57,168 nt of DNA from a virus (taxonomy: Duplodnaviria; Caudoviricetes), in the IMG/VR virus record IMGVR_UViG_3300037262_000028, positions 1 through 57,168 of that record; one strand, 5' to 3'. Made by a program: the position numbers and the translations under genes. Position 1 is the first letter of the stretch. Each line of letters begins with the position of its first letter. Of the stretch, positions 2,632 through 37,548 are shown one piece after another. Under the pieces are notes generated by a model, which searched no databases, was not told the origin of the DNA, and worked only from the letters and a program-made list of their open reading frames with translations.

Positions 2632-4056
2632 TCACTGCCCCAGCCCGGATAAAAACGCTTTGGTAAATCCCAGTGTGCCAGCCGTACCGACACTACCGTA
2701 ATTATTACAGGTGTCACTTGACGTGTTAGGTGACGCCTGGGTGGCACAATCAAAATCGCGCGAATAGGCCCAGGGGGTGATCCGGTTTAAGCCATTTGCA
2801 GTGAACCAGGTCGTTATTGTAGCCACATCGGCAATCGTAAGAAAGTCGATCGTACCTCCCACCCAGTCATTGCCGCCTATATACGGATTTACACCAAGAT
2901 TAGCGTAAGGGATTCCGTTGTAGTTATGCGCGTTCTGCATCTCCTGAATAACCGATAACCCCATCTCGCACACGCCGGCCGAAATAACGCACTGATTAGA
3001 TTGCTGTAAAAAATCGCCAGCCTGCAGCACAAATACGTAATTAGTAACCGGATAGACCGCCATAGCTTCCTGAATCCAGACAGCATACTGAGAGAAGCCG
3101 GTAGAGCATCCGACTGAACAGGCGTTGCCGCCAACCTGAAAACTCCATTGCAGACCTGGGTAAGTCGTCTGCGCGTAGTTCATCTCTTCGATAAGATTAA
3201 AGACGTCGTTTTGGGAATAGTTCGGCGTTGACGTGCCAAATACCCCCGATGTTATATTTAAACTGGCCGCTACATTATTCACCTTACCAACTAAATACGT
3301 CCCTGTTCCGCCTGTCCCAGTGCAGGATCCGCAGGCAGTCACCCCGTTTAGCTGGGAACCGCTCATCGCGATGATATAGTACACACCCACTGCCAGACCG
3401 TTATTATATATTTCCTGCCCCAGTGATACCGGCGTAGTGTCGGCGGTCACTGTCAGGATGTTACCCACACCTGTGCAGTCAGAATTACAAATAGTGCCCG
3501 TATAAGAACTGTTGACAATAGTCTGCCCTTCAATGTCAAAGTCAAAACCTAACAAATTAGGACTCACGAACGTATTCACGTAAGTCATGAACGCCGTATT
3601 ATTAGGGCTGGTGCCTGAATTACATTTAAAGGTGTGCCCTGCACCCCCGGCGGAGACAAAATAGGTTTTACCGTTTGCAATGAATGAGGGAATGTTGACA
3701 GCAGCAGCAACAGCAGCCGGAATATTAGGCTCGAAGATGGGCATCGGACAGGTTGTTGATGCCGGGTTGTTAACAGTGAATCCCCAGGTTAGCGTTTTAA
3801 GATCCGGTGGCATTGAGGACCAGACACTTTGCGCAAACTGCGTGGACACAGTTTGCGTAGTCAGCGATGTGATAATTGAATTAGGGTAGATCGCGTAGTG
3901 AGGGTCGTAAGGATAAAGGCCCCCTGACGCATTTGCCGCCGTATTGGACGTATAGGTGTAGTCGTCACTATACAACATGAAAGGGGCAAAAGTGACCTGC
4001 GCACTGGCAACGGAAAACATCAGCGCAAATAAAACAAAAGAAACTAATTTTTTCAT
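2632..4056 (-). CDS. Secreted GH18 (chitinase-like) glycoside hydrolase with an inserted beta module
   Basis: Signal peptide MKKLVSFVLFALMFSVASA; VSAGG strand; catalytic GFDFDIEG (DxDxE); late W-A-Y-S-R-D motif. Confidence 0.7.
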   Translation of the reverse strand: MKKLVSFVLFALMFSVASAQVTFAPFMLYSDDYTYTSNTAANASGGLYPYDPHYAIYPNSIITSLTTQTVSTQFAQSVWSSMPPDLKTLTWGFTVNNPASTTCPMPIFEPNIPAAVAAAVNIPSFIANGKTYFVSAGGAGHTFKCNSGTSPNNTAFMTYVNTFVSPNLLGFDFDIEGQTIVNSSYTGTICNSDCTGVGNILTVTADTTPVSLGQEIYNNGLAVGVYYIIAMSGSQLNGVTACGSCTGTGGTGTYLVGKVNNVAASLNITSGVFGTSTPNYSQNDVFNLIEEMNYAQTTYPGLQWSFQVGGNACSVGCSTGFSQYAVWIQEAMAVYPVTNYVFVLQAGDFLQQSNQCVISAGVCEMGLSVIQEMQNAHNYNGIPYANLGVNPYIGGNDWVGGTIDFLTIADVATITTWFTANGLNRITPWAYSRDFDCATQASPNTSSDTCNNYGSVGTAGTLGFTKAFLSGLGQ

Positions 4057-4716
4057 TTACTTCTCCGGATGGGCGCTAAATTTTAGCGTGCCCTGATAAT
4101 ACAGTTTAGATGAATGCCAGTGGGCAGGAAGAAAACGTAAAAAACCCGGCGGGTACCGGGTTATAAAAGTGTGCGGATAAGGCGGCCCGTAGGGGTATTC
4201 AGGTACCACTGGTACCAAATCGCCGAACCACTTTAGTTTTTTAAACACGTTACGAAACGATATACCCGGTATGTTTTTTTGCACCCAGCTGCAAAATTGT
4301 TTTTCACCCGCGTTAGGACAGGCGAACAGAATGCAGGACACTTCTTTAAAACCTGCCAGTATCAGTTCCGCTGCGCACAGTACGCCTTCACCTGCGCCTT
4401 TAGAGTGGCCGCTGACAACGATTTTAAAACCCGCAGGAATATCAGGTATCAGGAACTTTAAAATGGCGGGCAGATTCTCGTAGAAGCCACTGTGAACATT
4501 GCCAAACGTCGGGTGCCGGTAAGGTAGCACATCGAAGTCGGCAATCCAGCCGTGCAGATTGGCCGTGCCCTGAAAGCAAATGTGAAACACGCCATCAACG
4601 ATAGCGGTTCCACAGATGGTTTCACCAGCCTGATACAGCTTACTGAATGCGGCTTTATTAATCGGAAAGTAGATATACGTACAAGCCAATTTCGCCGCAT
4701 TAGTTAAATCGCTCAT
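4057..4716 (-). CDS. Lipase class 3 family alpha/beta hydrolase
   Basis: FQGT oxyanion region, VHSGF, nucleophile elbow SGHSKGAG, FACP, DLVPVVP and a distal His. Confidence 0.85.
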   Translation of the reverse strand: MSDLTNAAKLACTYIYFPINKAAFSKLYQAGETICGTAIVDGVFHICFQGTANLHGWIADFDVLPYRHPTFGNVHSGFYENLPAILKFLIPDIPAGFKIVVSGHSKGAGEGVLCAAELILAGFKEVSCILFACPNAGEKQFCSWVQKNIPGISFRNVFKKLKWFGDLVPVVPEYPYGPPYPHTFITRYPPGFLRFLPAHWHSSKLYYQGTLKFSAHPEK

Positions 4717-4717
4717 A

Positions 4718-5017
4718 TCACGCAGGCTGATGCTGTACTTCAGTTGCCGGTGTGTTGAGTGCTACCCACGCTGTATGCGTAGCCAGCACACCCTGGCCAA
4801 TGGTGGCGAATGTTGACGCCAGTTCAGCCTGCGTCATCAGCCCTGCAGCCTGAATTTGCTGCGCGGCCTGCAAAAACTGCAAAGCCAGCGGTGCCAGCGC
4901 CGCAGCGCTGGATACCGCAGGGTTTGCCGCGACTAAAGCTGGCGCTAAAGCAGTTAGTGTCGATACCAGCGTCGTTTCAATAGTTGACGCTGTACCTGGT
5001 TCGTTAGTTGAGTCCAT
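4718..5017 (-). CDS. Ala/Leu-rich hypothetical protein (lysis-associated)
   Basis: Likely start ATG 5017 in a TAATG overlap with the upstream stop; the longer track ORF overlaps the lipoprotein gene. Confidence 0.6.
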   Translation of the reverse strand: MDSTNEPGTASTIETTLVSTLTALAPALVAANPAVSSAAALAPLALQFLQAAQQIQAAGLMTQAELASTFATIGQGVLATHTAWVALNTPATEVQHQPA

Positions 5018-5334
5018 TATTTTGCTCCCTGTTGAACTGCAATTGTTGCTGCCAGTGTCGTTACAGCAGCGGTAATCTGCGCCGTCGCTGCGTCCGGACT
5101 CGCCGGTAGTGCTTTTCCCGTACATAGTGGTGTCACCTGGCTGTCCAGCGTGTTGATAGCGCTGATCTGAACTGCTGTCAGCTTGCCTGCGTCCCGTAAC
5201 TGTAAAATGGTGGCGAAACTGGTTTTGTAAGCCGTACATGCCTGAACGAAACCAACTTGCGCCGACTGAGTTGTTGCGCAGGCGGTTAAACCAAGGCACA
5301 ACATAACGGCCAAAAAACTGAATAACTTGCTCAT
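5017..5334 (-). CDS. Lipoprotein, possible spanin-like lysis protein
   Basis: Lipobox LGLTA-C after a hydrophobic leader; hydrophobic C-terminal helix; downstream of the endolysin. Confidence 0.65.
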   Translation of the reverse strand: MSKLFSFLAVMLCLGLTACATTQSAQVGFVQACTAYKTSFATILQLRDAGKLTAVQISAINTLDSQVTPLCTGKALPASPDAATAQITAAVTTLAATIAVQQGAK

Positions 5335-6724: not shown

Positions 6725-6726
6725 GA

Positions 6727-6939: not shown

Positions 6940-6986
6940 GATGCTTTCCGTATAAAAGTTTATGCTGCTAAAGACCGTATTTTACT

Positions 6987-7580: not shown

Positions 7581-7593
7581 GGTAGTCCTTTAA

Positions 7594-8538
7594 TTAATGG
7601 CCGATAGTAATATAAGTTGCGGCAACGGTTCCGGAAGCCGCATAAATCGTGGCCCCCGTTGTTGTCGGTACTGAAGATGACAAGGCCGCGACGGTAGCGC
7701 CGTTCTGCGCTGCCGGCGTACAGGTGTAAGCGCCGGTTGGAAAGGTAATCGCAAAAGTCACGGCGACACCTGCCGTGGTTGCTGACACGGTTCCCCACTG
7801 TATAATCAGTCCGCTAGGCAGCTTAGCGTAGCCTGATGTGCCCAGCGACGCACCGGGGTTAGCAAACGCCGTGGTGGCCAGCGTCGTGTTGCTGGTGTTC
7901 GTCGCTTGCGTTGCGCCTAGCTGGTTATAAATAACCCAGTTGGCCGCTGCTGCCGCTGTAATCGTTTCGCTCCCGACCGTCATCGAGTTTTGCAGGTTAT
8001 ACGTCCCTGTCCCGCCTGATCCTGTACCAAAACTGACAATCTGTGTGCCGGTCGTCACACCCGTACCTGACAAAATGTGACCTAAAACCAGCGTACCTGA
8101 ACCAACAGCGGTCACATTTAAAACTGTACCGGTAATTGTGCCGGTAACAGAGGCTGCTGCCGCATCAGGATTAGAAAAGTTATTATCGGCTGTCGATTTC
8201 CAGAATGTTGTTCCGGCTGCGTTACCTAATACGGCGCCTGATGCATAGCCGCCCACAAACTGGCAAAACGCGGCGTTATAGCTTGAGGTGAAACCCGCCT
8301 GCAGCCACTGTATAGCTGACGTTATTTCGTTTAGCAGCCCGTTAAAATCCTGACCGAAAGGAGGGACCCCGCCGTTAGATACCGATACGAAAGTGAGCGG
8401 GGGAAAACCGTCAGTTAATGATGCCGCCCCTGGTGTTACGTTAATCTGCGAAGCAGTCGGTATGGGCCTTGTGTAAGAACCTCCGGCGGCATTCGCAAAA
8501 GGTATCGGAAAAGGGGTTGGTGCGTTAGAAGCTTGCAT
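7594..8538 (-). CDS. Tail fibre protein 2
   Basis: N-terminal baseplate-binding region ([25 protein letters not shown], GGYxxGA); C-terminal [14 protein letters not shown] domain. Confidence 0.85.
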
Positions 8539-8553
8539 GCGTTACCTTTTTAA

Positions 8554-9840
8554 TTAATACCCGATGGCGAAAATAACCGGGGTGACACCATTACCGTTAT
8601 CTGAATTGCTCCGTATCACGGCTGCTGAGCCAACTGCTGATGAATAGAATCCGTAAGTCCCGTACTGAGAAGCGGATGAATATAAGCTCGATACGCACAC
8701 TTTCAGCACTGCGTTGGGGAATGTGATCGGGAAGTTAACAACCTGACTGCCTGCAACTGCCTGATTAGCCCCTTGCGTCCACTGAAAAATAATCCCGCTA
8801 GGCAGTTTTACGTAGCCGTTTGCGCTGATGGAATTGCCAGGATTAGCAAAAGCCGTTGTTGCCAGCTGTGTTGTCGCCGTATTTGATGCTGCTGTCGCCG
8901 CGAAGGCCGCCCCGCCAAAATAAGCTCCCGCTCCCGTGGCATCTATTGTCACTGCACCTGTACTGGCATTCCACTGGAAGGGCCGGTAAGAAGTGTATGA
9001 CGCCGCATTTGCCGCAGCCTGGGATGCCTGTACTGAAGATGACAACAGAAAAATGGCCGATCCTGATACGCCGAAAAAAGATTTGTACCACGCCGTACCA
9101 GATCCTGATACGTTGGTAATACCTAACGCCGTACCCGATGCGTTTAATGCTGATGCGGAAAAACTACCGCTGATAGCAGCGCTAACGGCCGAAAAAGCCT
9201 CAACACTTAAGTTACCTAGTGTCTGAATGAAATACTGCCAGTTCGATGCACCAGCAGCCGTAATCGTCGTGCTGCTATTGGTTTGCGTCGTCTGTACGTT
9301 GTACGTTCCTGTACCGCCAGATCCTGTGCCAAAACTAACAATCTGCGTATTTAAAGTTACGCCGGTGCCAGACAAAAGTTGTCCGATAGCGACAGTACCT
9401 GTACTGATAGCCGTAACAGTCAGAATTGTGCCGGTAATGTACCCTGTAAAGGTGGCGTTAGCTGCGTCTGGATTCGTTAAATTGTTATCCGCTGTCGATA
9501 CCCAGAACGTATTACGCGCAGCATTTGCGATAATTGCGCCGTTTGGGTAGCCTCCGATCGCTTCGCAAAATGTAGGGCTAAAACCGTATATATACCCGGC
9601 CTGCAAACCTTGAATCGCCGCAGTTATTTCCTTCAGTATGCCGTTAAAATCCTGACCGAAAGGAGGTACGCCGCCAGCGGCTGTAGGGTTAAATGTCAGA
9701 GGGGGGAACCCGTCAGTAAGCGATGCCGCCCCTGCTGTGATGCCTATCTGAGAAGCTGTCGGGATTGTTCGTATAAATCCGGCTCCCGCGTTATTAGCGA
9801 AGGGAATCGGGAACCCTGCCGGAACATTTGCTACTTGCAT
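8554..9840 (-). CDS. Tail fibre protein 1
   Basis: Paralog of fibre 2 (probable start MQVANVP at 9840); C-terminal [13 protein letters not shown] domain. Confidence 0.85.
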
Positions 9841-9841
9841 A

Positions 9842-11338: not shown

Positions 11339-11339
11339 A

Positions 11340-12752
11340 TTAAGAGAAAACTACGGCGATATTCGTTGCTGATAAAGTCGGAACCTGATTCGCTGCCATC
11401 AACACCGAACTTAGCGTCGGTGCTGTAACGCCTAATTCTATTGAGTAAATAACCGCCCACGAACCGAGCGCGGCAATATTAGCGTAGTATCTGCTGGAAT
11501 AAAGAGAACTGCCAATACGCGCCTTAGTGCCGCCGTCTTGCCCTGCAAAAGACTGAATTACCGCAGCCTGAACTAAAGCGATAGCGTTAGAAGGCGTATT
11601 ACTATTTAACTGCATAGAAATACTAAACAGTATTGGTGTGGCCGCCGGTGTTTCAAAAGCAATCTGATAAGACGGGTAGGGCGGGTTATAACCTGAAGCG
11701 GTGTCATACACTGTCACGGTCGTATTTCCGTTGTAGTTACACCCGGGACTGACGTTAGCCCACAAGGCGTTACCGATTGCTTGTGCAACGCCGCCATATA
11801 CAGACGCATAAATTGAGTTGGGCAGCAACTGAACACCGCCTACTGCACAGGTGATGGATTCACTGCCGACAGTCTGTGAAAAATTCAGCGCGTATGTTCC
11901 CGTACTACCTGTGCCTGTACCCAGCGATGTGATATAAGTGCCTTGCGTAATACCGCTTCCTGTCAGCATCTGATTGACCGCAACAGTACCGGATGCTACT
12001 GCAGTAACAGTGAACGTTGTGCCTGAAATACTGCCTGTAACAACAGCGCCGCTCGTAATGGATAGCGGGTTCTGAATAACGTAAACATCTTCCACGCCAG
12101 CTACGGCGAATAAGGCCGACACAACCGCCGGCAGACTACCTTGCGCATTAATCGCGACAGATTGTTCGCGGCGCAATTCGAATGCCTGGGGTGTCTCCGT
12201 GTTGTACCCGACTACACCTGCAGCCGGGTTGTAAATGCTGTTCCAGCCAGGTACCGTTTTGTAAATAGAACTTAAATAGCCGATAGGGCAGGCGATAGGT
12301 CCGGCGGTACTGCATTCAAACGTCAGCGATATACTGCCGCCTGTTGGGATTGTTCCGCCTGCTGTGGCCAGATAGATATTGCCTGCCTGATCGATCGCCG
12401 TAGCGTTAATAGGTATAATTGCCCCGACAGCGCCTATGCAGGTGCAGGTAACGACAGTGGCCTGCGCAGCGATACGGGTCATAAAATAAATGCGCCCGAT
12501 AGCGTCTTGCATCCGCCCGGAAGAAAACGCAGGGTCGACATTATTCATCAGCGTCAAAAACTGACTATTCACGTCGCCAATAATCGCTGTCAGCGATGTC
12601 GCTAACTGACCTTGGGGCGATGTCAGTGCAGGATTAAGATTACCGCCGAAAGCCTGGTTTAAATCCGCCTGAACGCCAGTCAGTATTGCTTCTTCAGTTG
12701 GCGGTACCCAACCGTTCGTGCCTATACTTGGAAATGGTACGTTTGTCGACAT
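11340..12752 (-). CDS. Baseplate J-like protein
   Basis: [38 protein letters not shown] motifs. Confidence 0.9.
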
Positions 12753-19636: not shown

Positions 19637-21574
19637 TTATTGAGCTTCGACTGAGGCTAAATTCATGCTTTGTACTGATCCGCCATCCATGTACCAAAAA
19701 GTCATCGGCGGAGAACCGCGGGCCCCCCGCACCTGCGCAGTGGCAGGCAAAATCTGCAAATAATACCCTTGTGAAAACAAAATCGCATCGATCGGCGTGC
19801 CTGCCGCCGTATTGACTTCGGCAATCTGCAAAGCAGATAACTGAACGCCTGGCTGAAATACGCCGAAGTTACCCGCTTGCGTAATCACTGTGCTTAACGC
19901 TGCGCGAATTAAAGCGTAACCTTGCGAGTTGTAAGGAATAGATTTCACGCTGGTCAGCAGTGTCATTAACACTAGCTGGAACGCTGAATTCATCCATATC
20001 TGATTAACGTAGCTATCCGCCCACTGAAACTGACCTGAAATCTGGCCTGGATTAAAAAACTGGAAACCCTGATTGGCTGTCGCGTAAGAGCCGTAAAAAT
20101 TGTATCCGTTAGCGATCAGATTAGAAGATACAGTCTGTGACGAGACAGTTGACGTAAATCCGGACTGCGATTTAAACGCCAGTGTCGAACGTCCGTTTAA
20201 CTGCGTGAAATCGATCGATGCAATAGAACCTGAAGTAAAAGCTGCCAGTCCGGTGTTATTTGGGTCGTAAACGCAAATAGTTCCCGAAGTTGAGTTATTT
20301 TTAAGAATATAGCCGAGACTGTTTGTTGCTGCGTTCGATTGCGTCGGAGTGATATCGAGATCCCACGCAACATAAGCGAATTCGCTATTTTGCAAGCCGT
20401 CCCAGTTAGCGAACGCCTGTTTATTCACGTTGCCGTAACCATTATCAGGATCGAACAGGGTAAAGAAAGTTGCCCAGTTAGTTGTCTGCGCGACGATGCC
20501 CGCCATGAAGGCTGCAGGTGTTGCAGGTGCCGCGCCTTGCGACAATGCGGCCCCGGTCGCCGAAGTCATCGACAAAGCAGTAGCCAGTGTGCCGGTACAG
20601 TAACCAATCGTACCTGCTGCACCGGGGGTGCCGCCGGTTAAAACGAAGTTACCGGAAACGCTATCATAAGTACAGGTGAGCGGACCTGAACTGATTGTGG
20701 TTGCAGATACTGTTTGCGCGCCGCCTGACGTAATATATGTACCTGCTGCACCTGTACCGGTACCCAGAGCTGTAATGGTTGTACCGGCTGCAGTAGTACC
20801 TCCTGATATGACTGATCCGACATACAGAGTACCTGACGACATCGCTGCAACAGTCATCAACCCGTATGATTGCGTAATCGTGGTTGATGTTGTTGTCTGA
20901 TTAAGGCTGACAGTATAAGTGCCAATACCTCCCGTCGTGCCAGTAAGTTGTGCCGTAATCGCTGTACCTGTCGTAACGCCTGTGCCAGACAGTACGCCGC
21001 CGACAACTAAAGCGCCTGAACCGACAGCAGTCACTGTCAGGGTATAGCCGGTGATTGAGCCTGTTACGCTGGTTGTCGTGCCTGTAGCGATAGTTGTCGC
21101 GGCGCTGGTAACACCGTCGTACGCGCCGAATGCTGTGGTAATGATCGTCGCAGCGTTTGCGGGGCTGGTAGCCGCAGATAAAGTGATCGCCCCCGACGTT
21201 TTCTGTACGCCTTCTACAGTGACGATTAACGTGCCGCTAAGAACCTGTAACGCTGTCAGTGATAAAGCCGCTGTTGCACCGCCGCGGATATATGCAGGTA
21301 CGGCGTTTTGGTTGTATTGCGCAAACAATAATGCGCCAGGCTTAATGTTCGAACCTTGAAAACCCGCGAAATATATAAGAGCGTTAGCGTAGTGTACTGA
21401 AGCTAATCCGTAATATGCACCGACAGCGGGTGCTGAAGGAAATGAAGGAACTGTTCCGATTGGTGTGCGAGTGCCGTTATCCAGACATAGCCCGGATAAA
21501 TCTAAGCCAGAACCGCCGGCCGATAAAACACTGGGGTTGACCTGGACAATGGCCGATGCTGGTATTGTACTCAT
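19637..21574 (-). CDS. Tail sheath protein (DUF3383-type) with two inserted beta modules
   Basis: [14 protein letters not shown] start, [23 protein letters not shown] motifs. Confidence 0.9.
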
Positions 21575-25067: not shown

Positions 25068-26237
25068 TTAGCCGATAGCCCATGAACTCATCTTAATGAG
25101 TTCACCGACCGCGCCGGGGGACATCGCAAACCACTTAGTTTCAGTGGCGCCCAAGACTGTCACAGTACCGCTTGTTGATGCGGTAGATGTATTAGTCAGA
25201 TAACTGCCAACGCCGCCTGTAGCACCAGAAACCTGTGCTGTGACCTGCGTATTTGCGGCGATAGTGCCGCCAGTAATCGTGTCATTAATACTGATCGTGC
25301 CGGAACCAACAGCAGAAACAACCAAAGTACCGCCTGATGCTGAAATGGTTGTTGATGTGGTGGTTTGGCTGATACTGACAGCATAAGTACCCAGACCGCC
25401 TGAACCTGAAATAAAGGCAGTGATGGTTGTTCCTGCCGATACGCCCGTTCCTGATAATGTCTGCCCGACAGCAAACGTACCTGACAATGCAGAGCCGGCG
25501 GTAAACATGCCGCCTGATGCAGTAATCGTGGTACTAGGTACTGTCTGACTAATATTTACCTGGAAGGTAGCGCCAGCAGAACCGCCAGCGGTACCTGTCA
25601 ACTGCGCAACGATCGTTGTACCTGCAGCTACACCGGTGCCAGTCAGAGTCTGACCTGCAACAAAACCGCCGCTGGATAACGCACCCATAGTGAGTGTGGT
25701 ACCTGCAATAGTGCTGGTTGTTGCTGTATTAACCGCAATGGTTGATGTCGCAGCGCTATTGGCTACCAAAGAAGCAGTTACTGATGCTGCTGTTGGCGGA
25801 GAGCCTGTAGCCGCAAAACTAATCTGGCCTGTAGCGTTATTCGCGTAGGCTTTCATGTTTGCCGTTACGGCGGTAGTTCCGTTATTAGTTACCCAGAAGT
25901 CGCCAGCCTGATGCACTGTGACAGGGTATCCTGGAGGTACCAGCTGGGTGTTAGATCCAAGGAACTTAGTAATCAGAGCTTGCTGTTCGCGGTGGATAAA
26001 ACCGAGAGGTGTACCAGCTCCGGTATTGTTAACCTGCGACCACGGATCGACTTCGCCTGAAACGTTGTCGTAACCTTGCGGCGATCCCCAGCAGAAGTAC
26101 CCTACCGTAACGCCGTTAGGTCCTGCTACAGGATCACCAGGCCCGTTCAACACCGACGCGCGGGGGTTGGCCGAGCAAAAATCGCCCGCCACGCCTGGTG
26201 CGGGCATAATATTTACTTGCTGTTGAAATTGTGACAT
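25068..26237 (-). CDS. Head decoration / cement protein with three nested beta modules
   Basis: [40 protein letters not shown] motifs; sits between protease and capsid. Confidence 0.85.
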
Positions 26238-28707: not shown

Positions 28708-28716
28708 ACAAATAAA

Positions 28717-31158
28717 TTAATATACTGACGGGAAGGATGCGGGTGTGACGGAGTAAGACACAAGCACATTACCTTCGCTGTTAGGGTGTGTTCCTTCGGT
28801 GGTTGCATACCAGGGGTTCCCGTTGACAACAAATAGCCCTGTGGTGCCTGATCCGCCGTATTCCAAATAAGTGTTAGGGTCAATCAACGTGTTTATTTGC
28901 AGCAAAGATTTAATGCTGGCCGTATTTAATGCTGTATATACAGTCATTCGTGTCGACGCAGCCCCGCCAGACCATCCGCCTAATGTAACTGTCTGGTTAG
29001 CCGTTGTTTCATACATGTCTGTTGTTGTAGCAACGTCAGGTGTTGGTAGTTTCTGAATGATATTTGCGCCGGGGCAGCAATTTTTTATCAGTCTGTTTAC
29101 AGCAAACATCTCACCTAAAATAAGCGTGGCGCCCTCCCGGTTGCCCGTTGCTGAATGAGGTCCAATGTATTGCCAAACCATCGTGCCATCAACAATATTT
29201 GCACCATACGTTGTACCGGAAAGATTGGTTAGTCCGGTAGTGCCGCTTACGTCACCTGGGACAGTTACGCCAACAGCGACATAATCGCTCGTTGCGCTTG
29301 TTCCTGATACCACATCACCAATAGTGTGTGAAGCTAATGAAGCCCAAACGGTAGGCGATAAATTACAGGAATGAGAGATATCATTGTGAACCATTCCGCA
29401 TACAACATGTGTCGGATTTCCCAGTGTCAGTAAACTCTGGCGGAATTGAGAATAGGCTGAGTTCATCCAGTAAATATTTGCGTCGCCGCCCTTCGATAAA
29501 TTGAACATCGAATAGCCGGCGAGCTCATTTACGCCGCGCTCTAACCAGCCTGAATTACCTAAAGCAGAACCAAATGCGTCACCGGCATTACCGGAAGGTG
29601 AAAAATAAATCGTAATAGGTGAACCACTGCTACCGATATTCGCTGCCGCGGTGTTCCATGTTGACCCGTTAGTTGAGCCGCCGGAGATATTAGTGCCTAT
29701 GGTCCCTACATTCGTTGACCCGTTTGTCCACATCGTTTCGCCGGTCGCCATAACGACGCCGCCCAGCCCACTCACTACATTGATGATGTTGCTGGCAATA
29801 TAACCGGTAAATGATGCCATACCCCCGCCCTCAAGCGACCCGAATTCAATTGAATCGCCGACTGCAGCAATAAAAGGGGTTGGCGCATTTGTCAAAATTT
29901 GCATTTGACAAGGCGTCATGTACGTTGTAGAGCCTACAGGACTTGTGGTGTAGGCTGTGTATGTCGCGCCTGACCGTGCCTGATCACTATGGATATAGGA
30001 GAGAATGCCTGTACAGGCGCCAGAAACGGTCACCGCATTGTTTAAAGTAAGTGTTACCGATCCCGTCGCCCCCGTAGTATCTACTACGTAAGTACCGTTT
30101 GGCACAGTCGAACCTGATGGCCCCTGGAACATCTGGCCCCTGGCCCAGGCAGTACCGCTGGTAATAGTTACGGTACTGGATGCTGTAGCAGACCCGGTAC
30201 CAGTAGCCGCCGTTGTGGTGTTAAGTACGCCGAGATAGCGTTGTAAGAAGTTACTGGCGGGTTTGCAGTAAGGAAGGGCCTGTCCGTATGCCGTCACAGT
30301 TGCGCCATTAGACGCGGCGTTTGCTGCCAGGGTATAGGATGTTCCGGCAGAAACGACAGTGGCTATCGTGCCGACTTGCGCATTATTATAGAAAACCGGG
30401 CTGCCAACGCCGAAGCCGTTACCGCTTACGCTGGTGCAAGTAAGCGTATTGCCCGTAGTAGCGAATACCGCCCCAGCGATAATTATCTGGGTCGGATTCT
30501 CCATGGTGGTATGCAAGCCAAAGAAATTCGGTGACGCCAGCGGTCCTGGTGTGTAATAAGCGCCTGGATCTAATATGTCTGTTTCAATGTAGCCGGCCTG
30601 TTGTGTTGGCCCGTTGTTACTTGTGCAGGTTACGTTAGATAAAGTGTTTCCGGTATAGGGAGATGCCAGGGTGATTCCGGTCGTACCAGAATAGGTTTGA
30701 ATAATCCCTACGACAGATGTTCCGTTAAACAGAGGCTGCCCGGCCGCGATTGTCCCGAGAATATTAGAGCAGGTAACTGCGGATGAGCCCTGGCTAACTG
30801 ATACCCCTGGAATAATCGCGTAAGTAGCTGTATTCGCACCGTTAAACGTGTATTGCTGACGCGGAGTTAATCCTGTAACCGCATTTGTGAAACTCAGCTC
30901 GAATGCTACTTGAAAATTTAGCCCGAAAGGTATCTGCACTTCCTGTACTGCCCCGGATACGGTTAGCAGCATAAAAAGCGGAATTACTTGCCGGTGCTGA
31001 CGAAAACGGGTGTTCAAATAGTGGCGTGAGCGCACTGTCTGTGAAATACCGCCGCCGACATTATAGCCTTGTAAAACAGGTGTCATCGAAGGCCCGACAC
31101 CGCGCCATGTGCTGTAAGGTAATACCTGTTTGACTGAGCTTGGTGGGATAGATAGCAT
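28717..31158 (-). CDS. Large SGNH/GDSL esterase-domain virion protein with several beta modules
   Basis: Block I VGDSI, block III G..HND, block V EGTHPN; Gly/Thr-rich inserts. Confidence 0.7.
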   Translation of the reverse strand: MLSIPPSSVKQVLPYSTWRGVGPSMTPVLQGYNVGGGISQTVRSRHYLNTRFRQHRQVIPLFMLLTVSGAVQEVQIPFGLNFQVAFELSFTNAVTGLTPRQQYTFNGANTATYAIIPGVSVSQGSSAVTCSNILGTIAAGQPLFNGTSVVGIIQTYSGTTGITLASPYTGNTLSNVTCTSNNGPTQQAGYIETDILDPGAYYTPGPLASPNFFGLHTTMENPTQIIIAGAVFATTGNTLTCTSVSGNGFGVGSPVFYNNAQVGTIATVVSAGTSYTLAANAASNGATVTAYGQALPYCKPASNFLQRYLGVLNTTTAATGTGSATASSTVTITSGTAWARGQMFQGPSGSTVPNGTYVVDTTGATGSVTLTLNNAVTVSGACTGILSYIHSDQARSGATYTAYTTSPVGSTTYMTPCQMQILTNAPTPFIAAVGDSIEFGSLEGGGMASFTGYIASNIINVVSGLGGVVMATGETMWTNGSTNVGTIGTNISGGSTNGSTWNTAAANIGSSGSPITIYFSPSGNAGDAFGSALGNSGWLERGVNELAGYSMFNLSKGGDANIYWMNSAYSQFRQSLLTLGNPTHVVCGMVHNDISHSCNLSPTVWASLASHTIGDVVSGTSATSDYVAVGVTVPGDVSGTTGLTNLSGTTYGANIVDGTMVWQYIGPHSATGNREGATLILGEMFAVNRLIKNCCPGANIIQKLPTPDVATTTDMYETTANQTVTLGGWSGGAASTRMTVYTALNTASIKSLLQINTLIDPNTYLEYGGSGTTGLFVVNGNPWYATTEGTHPNSEGNVLVSYSVTPASFPSVY

Positions 31159-31160
31159 AG

Positions 31161-31613: not shown

Positions 31614-31626
31614 AGCGGCTCTTTAA

Positions 31627-33219: not shown

Positions 33220-33497
33220 TAAAATGTACTTTGATTTACCAAAAACTGGCTGACAGACGCTACCTGGGCTACGCCGGTACCGATCCACTCATACTGATGC
33301 AGCCCGACTTGCACCGGGTTAAACTGCGCGTAATATACGCCAGTCGACACTACAAGCACTGAACTGGAGTAATCAGTGACGACACCATCGGGAGTTTGTA
33401 TCTTAAATGTGACCGTTGTCGGACTTATCGGGCTACCTGCTGGCGTTGTAACGGCCAAATTTAACTGGATCAGTGTGCCTGCTGTGTACGTGTTCAT
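33219..33497 (-). CDS. Small Ig-like structural protein
   Basis: P.TVTFKIQTPDG...STGVYYA....G...YEW beta-sandwich pattern. Confidence 0.6.
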   Translation of the reverse strand: MNTYTAGTLIQLNLAVTTPAGSPISPTTVTFKIQTPDGVVTDYSSSVLVVSTGVYYAQFNPVQVGLHQYEWIGTGVAQVASVSQFLVNQSTF

Positions 33498-34585
33498 GTG
33501 TCGCCCGTAATTGCTGTTGTGACGGCGTAATCGCCTGTCGCTGAGTTGTACACCCGGTTGTCGTTTGTAACAGCAATCATCGTCACGGCAGCAGCGTAAT
33601 CGCCTACTGCTAAATTATATGCCCCATGGTCATTTGCGGCGGTGATAAACGCTGCGTAATCCGTGGCTGCCAGCTTGCCGATATTGGACCCGTGAATTAC
33701 GACGGTAACAAAACCTGCCTCTGTTAGCCCCTGCACCCCGCTGACATTAATAGTCCAGACAGGTGTACCGGTAACAACCCCCGCGGCGCTGTTTCCCTGT
33801 TTGCCTGCTAATCCTGTTCGCACCGCGCTTATTACATTACCTGCGGTAGTGGTGCCCTGAACACCTGCTGCATAAAGCCCGTCGTTCGCCGCCATCAGGC
33901 CCGCGGCGCAAGTGGCCTGTGCGCCGCTTAATGCTGCGCGTACTGCAGGTATTACTGAACCTGATGCTGACGCAGCCTGAACGCCTGCCAGTGTGCCTGT
34001 ATTAATTAAATCAGAAGTGCTGCCGGCGGCTGATGTGCCCTGAACCCCTGACACGGTGGTCTTGCCTCCCGCTGCCAGACTGCCCGGAGAAGCGGCCCCT
34101 TGCGCACCAGTTACCTGCACACTGATGCCAGGAACCAGGCTGCCGGCACCCGATACCCCTTGTGCACCGGTTAATGTTACGGCTACGGCAAGGGAGGTCG
34201 TGCCCGCACCTGATACCCCCTGCACACCTGTGGCTTGTGCCCCGCTAAAAACGACACTGCCTGCCGAAGTCGTCCCCTGGACGCCCGTTACATTAACTGC
34301 AATGACTGACGACACGGTGCCAGCGGAACTGGTTGCCTGAACCCCCGCCGTAGTTACAGCGGTCGTTACGCTGACATTTCCCGCGGCAGATGTGCCTGCA
34401 GCGCCGGTAATTGCTTGTAGCAGCGCAGGTATGGTGGTGCCTGCGGAACTGGTTGCCTGAACACCGCCAACCTGATACTGAATACGGACTGACAGAACCC
34501 CGGCAACAGAGTTCGCCTGAACTCCGGTGACGGCATAACTGACAGACCCGCCGGCTGAACCGGAAAAAAGGAGCAGCATGGACAT
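33494..34585 (-). CDS. Repeat-rich fibre/stalk-like protein
   Basis: About 15 imperfect ~19-aa repeats of VTGVQ(A/G)TSxAGxV. Confidence 0.7.
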   Translation of the reverse strand: MSMLLLFSGSAGGSVSYAVTGVQANSVAGVLSVRIQYQVGGVQATSSAGTTIPALLQAITGAAGTSAAGNVSVTTAVTTAGVQATSSAGTVSSVIAVNVTGVQGTTSAGSVVFSGAQATGVQGVSGAGTTSLAVAVTLTGAQGVSGAGSLVPGISVQVTGAQGAASPGSLAAGGKTTVSGVQGTSAAGSTSDLINTGTLAGVQAASASGSVIPAVRAALSGAQATCAAGLMAANDGLYAAGVQGTTTAGNVISAVRTGLAGKQGNSAAGVVTGTPVWTINVSGVQGLTEAGFVTVVIHGSNIGKLAATDYAAFITAANDHGAYNLAVGDYAAAVTMIAVTNDNRVYNSATGDYAVTTAITGDT

Positions 34586-34608
34586 AGTGCTGTCCTTTTA
34601 ATTAACTA

Positions 34609-35250
34609 TTAAACTGGTACTTCTTCCCAGGAAAATGAAGCTAAAAAGCCTGATGCGGCCATCACTGCAGAGGTGTAGATGAGCGCATAGCCGCCTGGGG
34701 GTAAAATAATTTCACCTTTTATATCGTAAATACCAGGCATCGATTCCGTTGTGGTTACTGCGCCGGTTCCCAGCGCACCTAAAATAGTGTCTACGGTAGG
34801 TACGACAGGCAGCGTGATCGTGGCTGAAGAGTATAACTGGGCAACAGGCTGTGCACCCGAGCCTATATTTTTTGACTTAGGATTCAGCGATGTCAGAGTT
34901 CCGCTCAGTGCTGCAATGCCGTAACCGGTGGCCAGACCAAATACCAGCGGTGCTGCTGGTGCAACAATAAAACCGATGCCGACACGTTCAATCGCGACGT
35001 TTACTGCCGAACCGACCGGGTTGTAAAGCACTACCGTACCTGTTACCGTGGTGCTTAACCCGGCGATAGTTGCTGTCGCTAAGGCTGCCTGCATCGCGCC
35101 ACCAAAACGGGACTTACGATACGTACCTTCATAACAAGGCCCGTGTAGTTCTGAAACAATTACGTCGTTCATGTTGCCGGAACGGACAACGGGCTGCGAC
35201 CCGGACGGCGAGGAAGCCGCTGGTGCGCCGGTTTGCGTAGTAATTTGCAT
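34609..35250 (-). CDS. Putative structural protein
   Basis: VSELHG..YE..YR, LYNP.GS.VN, IILPPG, FSWEEVPV motifs seen in phage virion proteins. Confidence 0.6.
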   Translation of the reverse strand: MQITTQTGAPAASSPSGSQPVVRSGNMNDVIVSELHGPCYEGTYRKSRFGGAMQAALATATIAGLSTTVTGTVVLYNPVGSAVNVAIERVGIGFIVAPAAPLVFGLATGYGIAALSGTLTSLNPKSKNIGSGAQPVAQLYSSATITLPVVPTVDTILGALGTGAVTTTESMPGIYDIKGEIILPPGGYALIYTSAVMAASGFLASFSWEEVPV

Positions 35251-35262
35251 AGTTATAACCCT

Positions 35263-36861
35263 TTAAATATAAGTAGCACTGACGCTACAAGTCGATGCGG
35301 TGATCGCTGTTGCATCCAACACGGCGATAGCGCCAGTGACTGCCCAAATTATGCCTGATGAAAACGACATACCAACAGAGGGTATCGGTAGTGCATAAGA
35401 AGCTGTTGGCGGTATATAAACGTTATAAACCGGTGTCGTCGTGCCTACCGTTGCCGTAGATGCGTTAAATAGTTTTAGCCAGACCCCTGTACTGTTGGAG
35501 TTAGATACCGACATCGACATCAGCCGGCCCCCCGAATTTTTAATTAGTTGACTTACAGGTGTTGCTGGTGCCAGCACTACTGTGGCAAATGACGTCCCGC
35601 TAGGTGTTACTGTTATGCCCAGGGCTATTTGCCCGGCTGCGGCGGCTGAAGCTGTTCCCCCTATTTGATTTATGTTAACAGGGGCGGGCGCTACGTACCC
35701 CGACGCCCAGGGTTGCGCACGTAAATAGGCTGTCGCGTTACCGGCACCCGTTACCGTTAACTTTATCCAGCGTGCTAAACAAGGGAAACTGTAAGAACCA
35801 CTCGAAATGGTGGTTACGTACCCGTTTATTATTAGCGCCGCCGTCCCGGATAACGCTGACCAGTTTACAAGGTCATTAGAACAGCTCACCGTGGCTTGCA
35901 TAACATAAGTTGTTATATTTAAGCTTTGGTACCCTGTCGTATCTATGACGAGCTGGCCGTTAACTACACCGTTTAACGGGATTGGTACTGGCGCATCTGA
36001 AACAAGTATCCGGCCATTTACATCGACCGCTGGCTGATTAACTATCTTAAAGCGTGCCGCAAGACCTAACGTATCATCAAATAAGGCAGACATAAAATCG
36101 ACGTTGGCAAAATCGCCAGCCGGGTCGCCCGTTATTGCCTGAAATAGCGGCCCGTCAGATGATGTTGCTGCTAACGTGGCCGGGTCGGGAACACTGCTGC
36201 TGCTAATAACGGTGACTGGCAGTCCTGCGCCCGGTGCGATAGCCACACCGTTGATTTCGTTTAATGCGACGGGCAGGTTACCTAAATTAGTCACCGGCAT
36301 AATAGCGCCGTATGCCACATTCAAATTAAACAGGGTGGTCGTGTTGGGACCGACATTTTGCGCCGTTACTTTGACGTAGTTACCGTTCAAAATGCGTGAG
36401 ATATTAACCGCGTTGTCCGGCGTGACTAAATACGTCCACACATCGGCCAGATTTACCCCGAGAATATCGACATATTGCAAAACAGTTAGTATAAGCGGCT
36501 GATCTGATGTACATAAAAACGTGATAGCCGGTTCCGCTTCCGCTGTTTCAATCGCGCCGGGAAATATTTGCCCGGGGGCTAATTGTGCGGTGCTGGTATT
36601 AACTGTACTGTAAAAAAAATTAGTCGCGCCCAGCGCAACCATCAGCCCGTTTTGGCCGGCACCGGCTGATAAACTGTTAATCGGGGAACCGGAACCGTCA
36701 TTACTGTTAACGCTTCCGGTCCATGCCGATTCGCTGCTACCGTCAGCCCCACCCCCTACGTCGAGGATGGTCATCGGTGTTTTAACACCTGCGTTGACCG
36801 TTTTTGCTACCGTACGGATTATATCGCCGGCCCCGCCGCTTGATGCGCTATTGTCACTCAT
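35263..36861 (-). CDS. Putative multidomain beta-rich structural protein
   Basis: 532 aa; C-terminal KNSGGRL..., WLKLFN..TATVGTTTP, GMSFSSGI jelly-roll-like pattern. Confidence 0.6.
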   Translation of the reverse strand: MSDNSASSGGAGDIIRTVAKTVNAGVKTPMTILDVGGGADGSSESAWTGSVNSNDGSGSPINSLSAGAGQNGLMVALGATNFFYSTVNTSTAQLAPGQIFPGAIETAEAEPAITFLCTSDQPLILTVLQYVDILGVNLADVWTYLVTPDNAVNISRILNGNYVKVTAQNVGPNTTTLFNLNVAYGAIMPVTNLGNLPVALNEINGVAIAPGAGLPVTVISSSSVPDPATLAATSSDGPLFQAITGDPAGDFANVDFMSALFDDTLGLAARFKIVNQPAVDVNGRILVSDAPVPIPLNGVVNGQLVIDTTGYQSLNITTYVMQATVSCSNDLVNWSALSGTAALIINGYVTTISSGSYSFPCLARWIKLTVTGAGNATAYLRAQPWASGYVAPAPVNINQIGGTASAAAAGQIALGITVTPSGTSFATVVLAPATPVSQLIKNSGGRLMSMSVSNSNSTGVWLKLFNASTATVGTTTPVYNVYIPPTASYALPIPSVGMSFSSGIIWAVTGAIAVLDATAITASTCSVSATYI

Positions 36862-36867
36862 GACTTA

Positions 36868-37548
36868 TTAAGCGATACGAATTAAAGAGGTGGTTGAGCC
36901 TACTGTGGGCAGGAGTATAGTAAATGTGCCAGCCGTTACGGTTTGTGTACCGCCAAAGCTGCCGATATAAGCGCAATAAGTCTGGTTACTCGCGTTATAA
37001 ATCATGCATCCTGATGTGCTAAACGTAGCCGATGTCCAGCTCGGGTTTGTTGTGGGCTGCGTGACAGCGACCAGCGTGTTCAGCACCGGTGTGGTATTTA
37101 ATGCGCCGCCGCACGCCTGTCCGCCCTGTATATATCCGCCCGATCCGGCTAATTCATCGGTGCCTAAGTTGGTTGTTGTGGGCGACCCTGAACTTGACCC
37201 CCACTGAACCGACCCCGCGCCATATGTTCCTGTCACCGTCGCAATCATCAGGGCACAATTAAAATTATGCCCGACGAAGGTTAATGTAGGTGACCCGGCA
37301 CCTGTGCATGCCTGGGTGATATAGCAAGACGTGGTACTGTCGATCGCACCCACAAAACTGTTTGCCGGTACGTTGGTGCCTGATACGCTGCAACCGATAG
37401 CTACGTTGGCCAGCGACGACAGTGCTGTGATATGTGTGCTTGTGTTAGCCGTTGTGCCGGTCGCTGTACCCGAACCGTTAAAGCAGTGGCCGCCCTGTAA
37501 GACGCTGACCTTAAACTGAGAGGGGAGTGCGGTAGTAATACCAGCCAT
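36868..37548 (-). CDS. Putative structural protein with one inserted beta module
   Basis: MAGITTAL.SQFK..VLQG.H.F start; E..G.GGY..GG; FGGTQTVTAGTFTI..P end. Confidence 0.65.
   Translation of the reverse strand: MAGITTALPSQFKVSVLQGGHCFNGSGTATGTTANTSTHITALSSLANVAIGCSVSGTNVPANSFVGAIDSTTSCYITQACTGAGSPTLTFVGHNFNCALMIATVTGTYGAGSVQWGSSSGSPTTTNLGTDELAGSGGYIQGGQACGGALNTTPVLNTLVAVTQPTTNPSWTSATFSTSGCMIYNASNQTYCAYIGSFGGTQTVTAGTFTILLPTVGSTTSLIRIA

What the first reader, a model, noticed from the sequence alone, without database searches (positions are those of the whole stretch)
3245..37470. One ~65-aa beta module inserted about 14 times into 8 unrelated late proteins: a candidate virion-wide surface-display system
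Seen: a module of the form (A/S)xxTGxIxGTxLTVTAVxSGxxxxGQxLSGTGVxxGTxIxxxGTGxGGxGTYxxxxxQTxxSxTITA recurs in-frame. Clear copies are in both tail fibres (~7955-8155, ~9260-9457), baseplate J (~11845-12048), sheath (2 copies, ~20690-21110) and head decoration (3 copies, ~25150-25790). More diverged copies are in the GH18 protein (~3245-3510), the SGNH protein (about 4 copies, 29605-30805) and the 226-aa protein (~37275-37470). The host domains resume on both sides, so these are loop insertions. Established: Ig-like domains spread among phage structural genes in a similar way. Inference: this is a different mobile domain that would coat head, sheath, baseplate and fibres in many copies, for adhesion to a glycan, EPS or surface, or for shielding.
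Basis: partly seen in the sequence, partly recalled or inferred. Interest (0 to 1): 0.85.

Follow-up and report, generated by a model that had tools for sequence, protein, structure and literature searches.

The report
Unnamed beta-barrel add-on coating a phage
One small, self-folding, almost charge-free protein domain with no family name is plugged into the head cement, tail sheath, baseplate and both tail fibres of an uncultured phage, a new example of the known habit of phages to re-use one surface add-on across the particle.

Summary
The repeat is real, but smaller than claimed. Profile searches find 8 clear copies of a ~66-residue module in 5 virion proteins: two paralogous fibres, baseplate J, sheath (2 copies) and capsid cement protein (3 copies). 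A ninth, diverged copy lies in a secreted GH18-like enzyme. The 4 copies claimed in the 813-aa SGNH-like protein are not supported. The one claimed in the 226-aa protein is at best a distant relative. These look like compositional look-alikes in T/S/G/A-rich, charge-poor proteins.

AlphaFold2 folds the module as a six-stranded beta-barrel (pLDDT 96.9). It matches no Pfam, NCBIfam or PDB sequence. The nearest solved fold is the capsid decoration protein gp7 of Arthrobacter phage Bridgette (Z about 7). Relatives such as Burkholderia phage PE067 lack the inserts.

The family is large: 6840 representative proteins. Most identifiable hosts are phage cement, sheath, terminator, fibre and tailspike proteins. 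It also forms long arrays in giant adhesin-like or RHS bacterial proteins. Other phages carry it in up to 5 genes.

So this is an unnamed, promiscuous surface domain, functionally analogous to phage Ig-like domains. A role in weak glycan adhesion is plausible but untested.

The parts
7948..8154 (-). Module copy in tail fibre 1 (gene 7594-8538, aa 129-197). It sits between the conserved N-terminal fibre domain and the Gp53-like_C tip.
   Evidence: HMM domain E 2e-34, 1.8e-27 and 4.6e-25. Pfam Gp53-like_C matches aa 239-314. The N-terminal ~125 aa are shared with the PE067 fibre.
9250..9456 (-). Module copy in tail fibre 2 (gene 8554-9858, aa 135-203). This fibre is a paralogue of fibre 1.
   Evidence: HMM E 2.9e-26. 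67% identical to the fibre 1 copy. The two fibres align along their whole length.
11841..12047 (-). Module copy inserted in the baseplate J-like wedge protein (gene 11340-12752, aa 236-304). This was the sequence folded.
   Evidence: HMM E 6.4e-27. PE067 baseplate J (412 aa) has a gap at this place. AF2 model pLDDT 96.9.
20864..21073 (-). Module copy 1 in the tail sheath (DUF3383; gene 19637-21574, aa 168-237).
   Evidence: HMM E 8.7e-24. The PE067 sheath (498 aa, 55% identical) lacks a ~148-aa segment here. E217 gp31 aligns on both sides of it.
20684..20863 (-). Module copy 2 in the tail sheath (aa 238-297), in tandem with copy 1.
   Evidence: HMM E 3.9e-20 and 7.9e-16.
25515..25727 (-). Module copy 1 in the capsid cement/decoration protein (XM1_gp53 family; gene 25068-26237, aa 171-241).
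   Evidence: HMM E 2.6e-22. Pfam PF23982 matches aa 4-168.
25332..25514 (-). Module copy 2 in the cement protein (aa 242-302).
   Evidence: HMM E 7.1e-24.
25149..25331 (-). Module copy 3 in the cement protein (aa 303-363). It is followed by the last ~28 aa of the cement fold.
   Evidence: HMM E 2.9e-21. The C-terminal 28 aa align to PE067 cement residues 127-155.
3247..3477 (-). Probable diverged, Cys-containing copy (aa 194-270) in the secreted GH18-like protein (gene 2632-4056). It lies inside an inserted segment (about 3211-3525) directly after the DFDIEG motif.
   Evidence: Broad HMM domain E 0.004-0.007. hhalign 67% and 26%. Four of 5 homologues lack the segment. A 27-nt stretch is 85% identical to the fibre 1 copy.
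37255..37485 (-). Uncertain. This is the N-terminal extra segment of the 226-aa protein (gene 36868-37548). It may be a distant relative of the module. It is not counted as a copy.
   Evidence: hhalign probability 18%, E 1.3e-3 with the family alignment. No HMM row. Shorter homologues of 149 and 183 aa lack the segment.

Best explanation
SHOWN
- The recurring segment is an autonomous, non-catalytic accessory domain of about 66 residues.
- It folds as a closed six-stranded beta-barrel.
- It belongs to a large family that has no curated name.
- The window is a complete 57-kb myophage with direct terminal repeats and XM1/E217/PE067-type structural genes.
- The domain is spliced into places where relatives have nothing. 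These are: before the last strand of the capsid cement protein (3 in tandem), in the sheath (2 in tandem), in baseplate J (1), and behind the attachment domain of both fibres (1 each).
- A diverged copy sits after the catalytic strand of a secreted chitinase-like enzyme.

INFERRED
- The insertion sites face outwards.
- The particle would carry on the order of a thousand or more copies. This assumes the cement protein forms trimers at every three-fold position, as in XM1.
- That would give the virion a dense, uncharged, hydroxyl-rich (Thr/Ser/Gly) coat.

MOST LIKELY MECHANISM (inferred, untested)
- Like the Ig-like domains of other phages, each barrel makes weak contacts with polysaccharide: host envelope, capsule, EPS or another matrix.
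- High copy number turns these weak contacts into useful avidity. This would hold the particle near hosts before the fibre tips bind specifically.
- In cellular proteins the same barrel is strung into long arrays that serve as a stalk.
For: THE DOMAIN AND ITS COPIES
- 8 copies score at E 3e-20 to 2e-27, against 0.35 for the next ORF. The same 8 appear.
- The AF2 model built on 59 copies has pLDDT 96.9 and pTM 0.83, with six strands.

INSERTIONS RELATIVE TO RELATIVES
- PE067 homologues lack the inserts.
- No module was found in 31 kb of PE067.
- GH18-like homologues lack the insert.

SIZE AND RANGE OF THE FAMILY
- 6840 representative proteins match at E <= 1e-3, 2700 at <= 1e-10 and 131 at <= 1e-30, out of 1.84 billion.
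- 1736 proteins match at E <= 1e-5 among 8000 scored candidates.
- BFVD gives 14 matches at E <= 1e-3, with TM 0.79-0.97 and 32-66% identity. They include an HK97 capsid protein, P22 gp10-like, side-tail-fibre, pectate-lyase and giant-virus collagen proteins.
- Of 77 family proteins scanned, 22 carry a Pfam family: tail collar 5, XM1_gp53 4, DUF3383 sheath 3, pectate lyase 3, and 7 others once each. The other 55 carry none.
- Of 36 module-bearing ORFs in related viral contigs: cement 11, sheath 6, tail terminator 6, DUF1996 3, pectate lyase 1, CBM_5_12 1, none 8.

HINTS OF A SUGAR CONTEXT
- Giant hosts carry discoidin, PA14/GLEYA, LamG, CBM_5_12, autotransporter PATR and RHS repeats.
- The two GH18-like proteins with the insert lack the N-terminal CBM_5_12 that 3 of the 4 insert-less homologues carry.

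NEAREST SOLVED FOLD
- It is a capsid decoration protein, Bridgette gp7: Z 7.0, rmsd 1.7 A over 61 residues, 28% identity. A second look gave Z 6.8. Foldseek gave E 0.023, TM 0.71.
- Its role as dimers around the pentamers comes from passages of bioRxiv 10.1101/2022.09.09.507160.

EXPOSED POSITIONS IN RELATIVES
- In XM1 the cement protein forms surface trimers on a T=7 lattice, and the sheath carries an outward insertion domain (passages of PMC10457771).
Against: - No binding has been measured, and no ligand site is evident. The conserved positions are glycines (G20, G25, G30, G45, G47, G50), core hydrophobic residues, T37 and Y52.
- The fold matches are borderline (Z below 8) and say nothing about function.
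- Bridgette gp7 is not detectable by sequence: it is not among the hits at E <= 10.
- The exact insertion sites were not mapped onto coordinates of a solved relative, so outward exposure is an inference.
- The complementarity between CBM_5_12 and the module rests on only 6 proteins.
- In cellular proteins the tandem arrays fit a passive spacer role equally well.
- Exposed virion proteins of this lineage are charge-poor throughout (D+E+K+R 2-8%). The module's composition may therefore reflect a lineage trend rather than a function of its own.
Confidence: 0.55

Rival explanations
1. Passive structural add-on. The barrel has no external ligand. It makes lateral contacts that reinforce the capsid, sheath or baseplate lattices, perhaps by pairing as Bridgette gp7 does. 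Alternatively it is a neutral, robust spacer that is tolerated in loops and spreads because it folds on its own.
For: - The conserved positions are purely structural.
- The nearest solved relative binds a capsid as dimers.
- The most frequent host is a cement protein whose known job is reinforcement.
- Copy number varies freely, from 0 to 5 or more, among homologous hosts.
- In giant bacterial proteins it forms long arrays of up to 26 matched stretches, like stalk domains.
Against: - Its place between the attachment domain and the receptor-binding tip of fibres, in tailspike depolymerases, and in a secreted glycosidase loop is hard to explain by lattice reinforcement.
Confidence: 0.3
2. Shield or cloak. 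The uncharged Thr/Ser/Gly coat masks the virion surface from proteases, from non-specific electrostatic sticking to particles, or from host surface decoys and defences.
For: - The charged-residue content is extremely low: 0-1.4% in the 8 copies and 3.1% over 535 non-redundant family copies.
- The predicted copy number on head and sheath is high.
Against: - There is no direct evidence.
- The host proteins are already charge-poor without the module.
- The module also occurs in secreted enzymes and cellular adhesin-like proteins, where cloaking makes little sense.
Confidence: 0.1
3. Compositional artefact. The 'module' is only low-complexity G/T/S-rich sequence recurring by chance.
For: - This does describe the 4 claimed copies in the 813-aa protein, and perhaps the one in the 226-aa protein. 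They give no HMM signal and poor mutual alignment.
- Control proteins score as high as they do in shuffle tests.
- tblastn with its low-complexity filter found nothing for two clear copies.
Against: - For the 8 clear copies E-values are 1e-20 or lower, against 0.35 for the next ORF.
- The glycine and tyrosine register is conserved.
- The fold prediction is confident.
- There are thousands of homologues.
Confidence: 0.02
4. Glycosylation scaffold. The Thr/Ser-rich barrels are sites for O-glycosylation of the virion.
For: Thr plus Ser make up about 33% of residues. Virion glycosylation in mycobacteriophages is recalled from memory, not from a call.
Against: - The PHROG and Pfam scans run on the window's ORFs of 100 aa or more found no glycosyltransferase.
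- Most of the Thr lie in beta-strands of a compact fold, not in a disordered linker.
Confidence: 0.03

Closest known systems
Capsid decoration protein gp7 of Arthrobacter phage Bridgette (PDB 8ECI)
   Same: It is the best structural match in all three PDB comparisons: Z 7.0 with rmsd 1.7 A over 61 residues and 28% identity; Z 6.8; Foldseek TM 0.71. It is a small beta-barrel that sits on the outside of a phage capsid.
   Different: - gp7 is a free-standing 124-aa protein that binds as dimers around the pentamers. Here the barrel is spliced into other proteins.
- There is no detectable sequence similarity.
- Z below 8 may reflect only a common arrangement.
Ig-like accessory domains of tailed phages (Big_2, I-set, FN3 on Hoc, tail tube, wedge and fibre proteins). 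Fraser et al. 2006, 'Ig-like domains on bacteriophages', is recalled; its title was seen only in the listing as a term in other papers.
   Same: - It follows the same logic: one small, dispensable beta domain found in many unrelated virion proteins, in variable copy number, and absent from close homologues.
- The proposed role, weak carbohydrate adhesion, is the same.
   Different: - The fold is different: a closed six-stranded barrel, not a sandwich. The structural neighbours are EF-Tu domain II, the F1-ATPase N-terminal barrel and E1 FCCH.
- No Pfam Ig family matches at E <= 10.
- The module is almost free of charged residues.
Outward insertion domains of contractile sheaths (InD of XM1 gp6; domain A of E217 gp31)
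   Same: An extra domain carried by the sheath subunit beyond the conserved core (passages of PMC10457771, and PMC10329688).
   Different: - XM1 InD is described there as FliD-D3-like and unique to XM1.
- The module here is a different, much smaller barrel, present twice, and shared with head, baseplate and fibre proteins.
Translation-factor domain II / F1-ATPase N-terminal / E1 FCCH beta-barrels
   Same: The same general six-stranded barrel arrangement over 63-68 residues, with Z 5-6.
   Different: - Identity is 6-18%, and these matches sit at the level expected for common folds.
- Pfam E1_FCCH matches a segment next to the module arrays in two family proteins, not the module itself.
Non-catalytic carbohydrate-binding modules (for example CBM_5_12) of glycoside hydrolases
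   Same: - A small beta domain attached to a chitinase-like enzyme.
- The two insert-bearing GH18-like proteins lack the CBM_5_12 that 3 of their 4 insert-less homologues carry.
- The module co-occurs with CBM_5_12, discoidin and PA14 domains in giant proteins.
   Different: - There is no sequence match to any Pfam CBM.
- No aromatic platform is conserved apart from one tyrosine.
- Binding has not been tested.

Membership tests
The unnamed module family itself (profile A2, and the broad HMM of ~797 copies) | Significant match to the family profile over most of its ~67 positions | tested here: met
   8 copies match at E 3e-20 to 2e-27 and 8e-16 to 5e-25. The GH18-like copy matches weakly, at domain E 0.004-0.007.
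The unnamed module family: claimed copies in the 813-aa protein | Match to the family profile | tested here: not met
   The true reading frame gives no row at E <= 100. hhalign probability is 1.2%. The segments align with each other at 19-26% identity.
The unnamed module family: claimed copy in the 226-aa protein | Match to the family profile | tested here: inconclusive
   There is no HMM row. hhalign probability is 18%, E 1.3e-3 with 5 homologues. The segment is an add-on that is absent from two shorter homologues.
Phage Ig-like domains (Pfam Big_2, I-set, fn3 and relatives) | Sequence match to a Pfam Ig-type model | tested here: not met
   All 8 copies were scanned against Pfam-A at E <= 10. 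The only matches were three unrelated DUFs, at E 0.43-6.6.
Phage Ig-like domains | Two-sheet Ig/FN3 sandwich fold | tested here: inconclusive
   The listed structural neighbours are closed barrels: Bridgette gp7, EF-Tu domain II, the F1 N-terminal domain. A family that is not listed is not excluded by that.
Bridgette gp7-like decoration proteins | Shared fold over the whole domain | tested here: inconclusive
   Z is 6.8-7.0 with rmsd 1.7-2.0 A over 61-62 residues and 27-28% identity. That is only about 1 Z unit above unrelated barrels.
Bridgette gp7-like decoration proteins | Detectable sequence homology | tested here: not met
   Profile searches of the PDB with A1 and A2 at E <= 10 do not list 8ECI.
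E1_FCCH (PF16190) | Pfam model match on the module | tested here: not met
   There is no match on the 8 copies. In P0168 the match at aa 795-856 lies after the last module copy, which ends at 779. In P0025 the match at 786-852 lies far from the copies at 2052-2367.
Carbohydrate-binding modules | Binding of a glycan | not testable with these tools
   Only context is available.
GH18 glycoside hydrolase (host of the ninth copy) | Pfam Glyco_hydro_18 match and DxDxE catalytic motif | tested here: inconclusive
   There is no Pfam match at E <= 0.01. A DFDIEG motif is conserved across 5 of the 6 aligned proteins (NIDVEG in P0246), and one homologue is named 'chitinase' by its source. The Atlas neighbours include GH18 clusters, but at scores of 0.76-0.79, which count as leads only.

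The most novel reading that the evidence does not exclude
The barrel is a previously unrecognised carbohydrate-binding module family. Under this reading it took the place of CBM_5_12 in a phage-encoded chitinase-like enzyme. Displayed a thousand-fold on head, sheath, baseplate and fibres, it would give a whole lineage of environmental myophages a virion-wide, multivalent glycan-adhesion coat. Tandem pairs of the barrel would be exchanged as cassettes between sheath and cement genes.
Probability: 0.25. Interest if true: 0.7.

Novelty: new variant of a known kind. Interest (0 to 1): 0.45.

Why it matters
- It defines a large domain family: 6840 representative clusters and a high-confidence fold. 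The Pfam-A, NCBIfam and PDB copies searched here do not match it, so many phage structural proteins now labelled 'hypothetical' could be partly annotated.
- It adds a second, non-Ig fold to the short list of promiscuous surface add-ons of phage particles. Head, sheath, baseplate and fibres of one complete genome all carry it, so it makes a compact test case for what such add-ons do.
- If the barrel binds a glycan, it would be a new CBM-like family.
- It could also serve as a small, charge-free display or affinity scaffold.

Tried and rejected
- Single-sequence AF2 of the whole cement protein gave an unusable model (pLDDT 38.9). That used one of the two structure jobs, so the claimed copies in the 813-aa and 226-aa proteins could not be folded.
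I re-ran it with one copy.
- Smith-Waterman scores against shuffles did not discriminate. The 813-aa protein reached z 4.0 and the 226-aa protein z 2.6, but the control proteins DUF2612 and the 532-aa protein reached z 3.5 and 3.4.
- Homologues of the 813-aa N-terminal part: only its own cluster turned up in the 5.8-billion protein set, and nothing in viral contigs.
- Pfam on the five claimed diverged segments gave only a sub-threshold MlaD match at E 0.019.
- tblastn of two clear copies against 50,697 phage records gave no match. The low-complexity filter probably masks the query, so this says little about cultured phages.
A sample of 301 genomes from that genome's phylum had 2 with the module, one being the centre genome itself.
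- PF25919, listed on 5 family proteins, is not matched by the Pfam copy at hand and appears in no paper. Clear module hosts such as P0024 do not carry it, so I did not take it as the module's family.
- DNA-level repeats between copies are only 25-27 nt at 72-85% identity, so recent duplication or gene conversion is rejected.
- No tandem DNA repeat was found in gene 33494-34585.
- Self-association of the barrel (2 copies, alignment A2) was submitted to complex prediction many times, but the queue was always full and no job ran. This question stays open.
- Earlier-findings look-ups by sequence and by place returned nothing.

Full report
WHAT THE WINDOW IS. The 57,168-base window is a whole virus record with direct terminal repeats, estimated 100% complete. 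All late genes lie on the minus strand. Pfam and PHROG scans give this gene order:
- Large terminase, then a five-gene block with no hits.
- Portal, a 150-aa protein, the 813-aa protein, head morphogenesis protein, protease/scaffold.
- Cement protein (XM1_gp53 family), major capsid protein, neck proteins.
- Sheath (DUF3383), tube, chaperone, tape measure, hub and wedge proteins.
- Baseplate J, DUF2612 protein, two fibres ending in Gp53-like_C, a fibre-like protein.
- Endolysin, class-3 lipase and a signal-peptide protein with a DFDIEG motif.
- A replication module (DNA polymerase, primase, exonuclease) follows.
The closest named relatives are Burkholderia phages of the PE067/phiE131 type. Their sheath is 55% identical over two pieces covering 67-68% of the query, and the structural genes are in the same order.

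- An HMM from four copies found the other four at domain E 5e-9 to 2e-16.
- An HMM of all eight scored each at 3e-20 to 2e-27 among 652 six-frame ORFs, with the next ORF at 0.35.
- A six-frame search of the record with a 59-copy profile returned the same eight places.
- The copies share 33-67% identity and a fixed register of glycines plus one tyrosine.

The 'more diverged' copies fared differently.
- GH18-like protein: probably real. The broad HMM gives domain E 0.004-0.007, with the next ORF at 3 or more. hhalign gives 67% against the single sequence and 26% with its family alignment, at the same residues. A 27-nt stretch is 85% identical to the fibre-1 copy at the GTGGTGTY motif. Four of five homologues lack the ~95-100-aa segment, which sits immediately after the DFDIEG motif.
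- 813-aa protein (four claimed copies): no profile signal at all, and the segments do not align with one another.
- 226-aa protein: weak. hhalign reaches 18% with homologues, although the segment is an add-on that two shorter homologues lack.
These proteins are, like most exposed proteins of this phage, very poor in charged residues (2-8% D+E+K+R) and rich in T/S/G/A. That explains why they looked similar by eye. Tally: 9 of about 14 copies, 6 of 8 proteins.

ARE THEY INSERTIONS? Yes, at five kinds of site.
- Sheath: against PE067 it has a 148-aa extra block holding the two copies.
- Baseplate J: it has one extra block.
- Cement protein: a linker and three copies lie between the core and the last ~28 residues, which align to PE067 residues 127-155.
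- Fibres: the module follows the ~125-aa N-terminal domain shared with the PE067 fibre and precedes the tip domain. This is a domain junction, not a loop.
- PE067 itself has no copy in the 31 kb examined.

WHAT IS THE MODULE?
- Folded on an alignment of 59 copies (8 from the window, 51 from 38 viral contigs), it gives a very confident model (pLDDT 96.9, pTM 0.83) of six strands.
- No Pfam-A or NCBIfam model matches at E <= 10, and no PDB sequence matches.
- The structural neighbours are small closed barrels. Best is the decoration protein gp7 of Arthrobacter phage Bridgette: Z 7.0 and 6.8, rmsd 1.7-2.0 A over 61-62 residues, 27-28% identity; Foldseek E 0.023. The preprint 10.1101/2022.09.09.507160 (passages read) describes gp7 as binding in dimers around the capsid pentamers.
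- Next come two Pyrococcus proteins of unknown function, translation-factor domain II, the F1-ATPase N-terminal barrel and the E1 FCCH domain, at Z 5-7. These values are in the range the tool warns may mean only a common arrangement.
- In the library of predicted viral structures the same domain is plainly present: 14 matches at E <= 1e-3, TM up to 0.97, 32-66% identity. Hosts include capsid, P22 gp10-like, side-fibre, tailspike and giant-virus collagen-repeat proteins.

HOW WIDE IS THE FAMILY?
- A profile search of 1.84 billion representative proteins found 6840 at E <= 1e-3 and 131 at <= 1e-30, some with up to 26 matched stretches in proteins of 3000-4000 residues.
- Where a host family could be named, it was overwhelmingly a phage virion protein (22 of 77 named; 28 of 36 named, namely cement 11, sheath 6, tail terminator 6, DUF1996 3, pectate lyase 1, CBM_5_12 1).
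- The giant hosts are adhesin-like or toxin-like cellular proteins with discoidin, PA14/GLEYA, LamG, CBM_5_12, PATR or RHS parts.
- Source names are uninformative, for example 'beta strand repeat-containing protein' and 'gp53 minor capsid family protein'.
- In a sample of 301 bacterial genomes of one phylum only 2 had it.
- Ten other virus records carrying it had 1, 11, 3, 10, 3, 6, 2, 2, 1 and 2 matches, in up to five different genes. The window, with 8-9 copies in 5-6 genes, is at the high end but not unique.

HOW DID IT GET THERE?
- The copies in this genome are no closer to each other than to copies elsewhere (best outside matches 54-74%).
- At the DNA level they share only 25-27-nt stretches.
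- On a weakly resolved tree of 61 copies they cluster by host protein and position (20 label changes against a shuffled mean of 28.3; 0 of 200 shuffles as low). They do not cluster by genome (50 against 50.0).
- Sheath copy 1 groups with cement copy 1, and sheath copy 2 with cement copy 2. This hints that tandem pairs move as units, but the support is unstarred (SH-aLRT 84-92).
- The picture is old, repeated domain shuffling among virion genes of a lineage, not a recent burst inside this phage.

WHAT DOES IT DO? Nothing here measures function.
- Conserved positions are glycines, core hydrophobic residues, T37 and Y52. There is no catalytic or obvious ligand motif.
- Charged residues make up 0-1.4% of the eight copies and 3.1% across 535 non-redundant family copies.
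- Three points of context favour weak contacts with polysaccharide. The module sits in fibres and tailspike depolymerases. It sits in a loop next to the catalytic strand of a chitinase-like enzyme that lacks the CBM_5_12 of its relatives. It keeps company with lectin-like domains in giant proteins.
- High copy number would make such contacts effective. If the cement protein forms trimers on a T=7 lattice as XM1 gp53 does (7 per asymmetric unit; PMC10457771 passages), the head alone would carry over a thousand barrels.
- I hold this at about 0.55 for the whole statement. Within it, the domain and insertion part is near certain, and the adhesion part is about 0.4.
- The main rival, at 0.3, is a passive structural or spacer role.

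COMPARISON AND NOVELTY.
- The logic is that of the Ig-like domains of phages (Fraser et al. 2006, recalled; the paper itself is not in the library). The fold and family are different and uncatalogued.
- Earlier notes of this scan (AI notes, not checked here) report the same phenomenon with other unnamed domains in other phages. The phenomenon is therefore recurrent. What is new here is this particular barrel family.
- I found no paper naming it. They were word searches and cannot exclude a description under another name. Supplementary files were not consulted.
- Verdict: a real, partly over-counted observation, and a new variant of a known kind.

Noticed in passing
window 33494-38054 (minus strand): Five genes (363, 213, 532, 226 and 167 aa) lie between the portal and large terminase genes. 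PE067 has a single 194-aa gene there. Pfam and PHROG scans give no hit for any of the five. Four of them are charge-poor (2-8.5% D+E+K+R). By eye the 363-aa protein is built of loose GVQ(A/G)T(S)SAG-like units, but no DNA tandem repeat was found.
   Followed up: partly
window 12786-13883 (minus strand): A 365-aa protein with a signal-peptide-like N-terminus sits between baseplate J and the wedge genes. This is unusual for a gene inside a baseplate cluster. Its only match is a sub-threshold K1-lyase_C hit at E 8.6e-4.
   Followed up: no
window 9842-11338 (minus strand): The DUF2612 baseplate protein is 498 aa, against 219 aa in PE067. The extra ~280 C-terminal residues have no family match.
   Followed up: no
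whole window; PE067 locus L001: Exposed virion proteins (fibres, sheath, baseplate J, cement, DUF2612) have only 3-7% charged residues. Portal, terminase, scaffold and tape measure have 22-29%, and the capsid protein 16%. The PE067 sheath (7.8%) and fibre (6.9%) show the same trend.
   Followed up: partly
L012, L015, L016, L020, L027, L030 (viral contigs): In related phages the same module is also inserted in the tail terminator protein (Phage_tail_terminator_9), in 6 of 36 module-bearing ORFs. The window's own terminator-region genes lack it.
   Followed up: partly
P0168 aa 795-856; P0025 aa 786-852: A second small barrel-type domain matching Pfam E1_FCCH (ubiquitin-activating enzyme FCCH) occurs in two giant family proteins. 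In P0168 it lies just after the module array; in P0025 it is far from the array. This suggests that another uncatalogued phage or adhesin use of that fold exists.
   Followed up: partly
window 2632-4716 (minus strand): The late operon ends with a secreted chitinase-like protein and a class-3 lipase (PF01764, E 9.6e-14), next to the endolysin. Homologues of the chitinase-like protein carry an N-terminal CBM_5_12 instead of the module insert.
   Followed up: partly
window 28717-31158 (minus strand): An 813-aa protein sits between the portal and head-morphogenesis genes. It has GDS and THPN motifs by eye, and its Atlas neighbours are SGNH/GDSL clusters at 0.85-0.86, which count as leads only. It has no homologue outside its own cluster in two searches. 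An esterase in a head-gene position is odd.
   Followed up: partly
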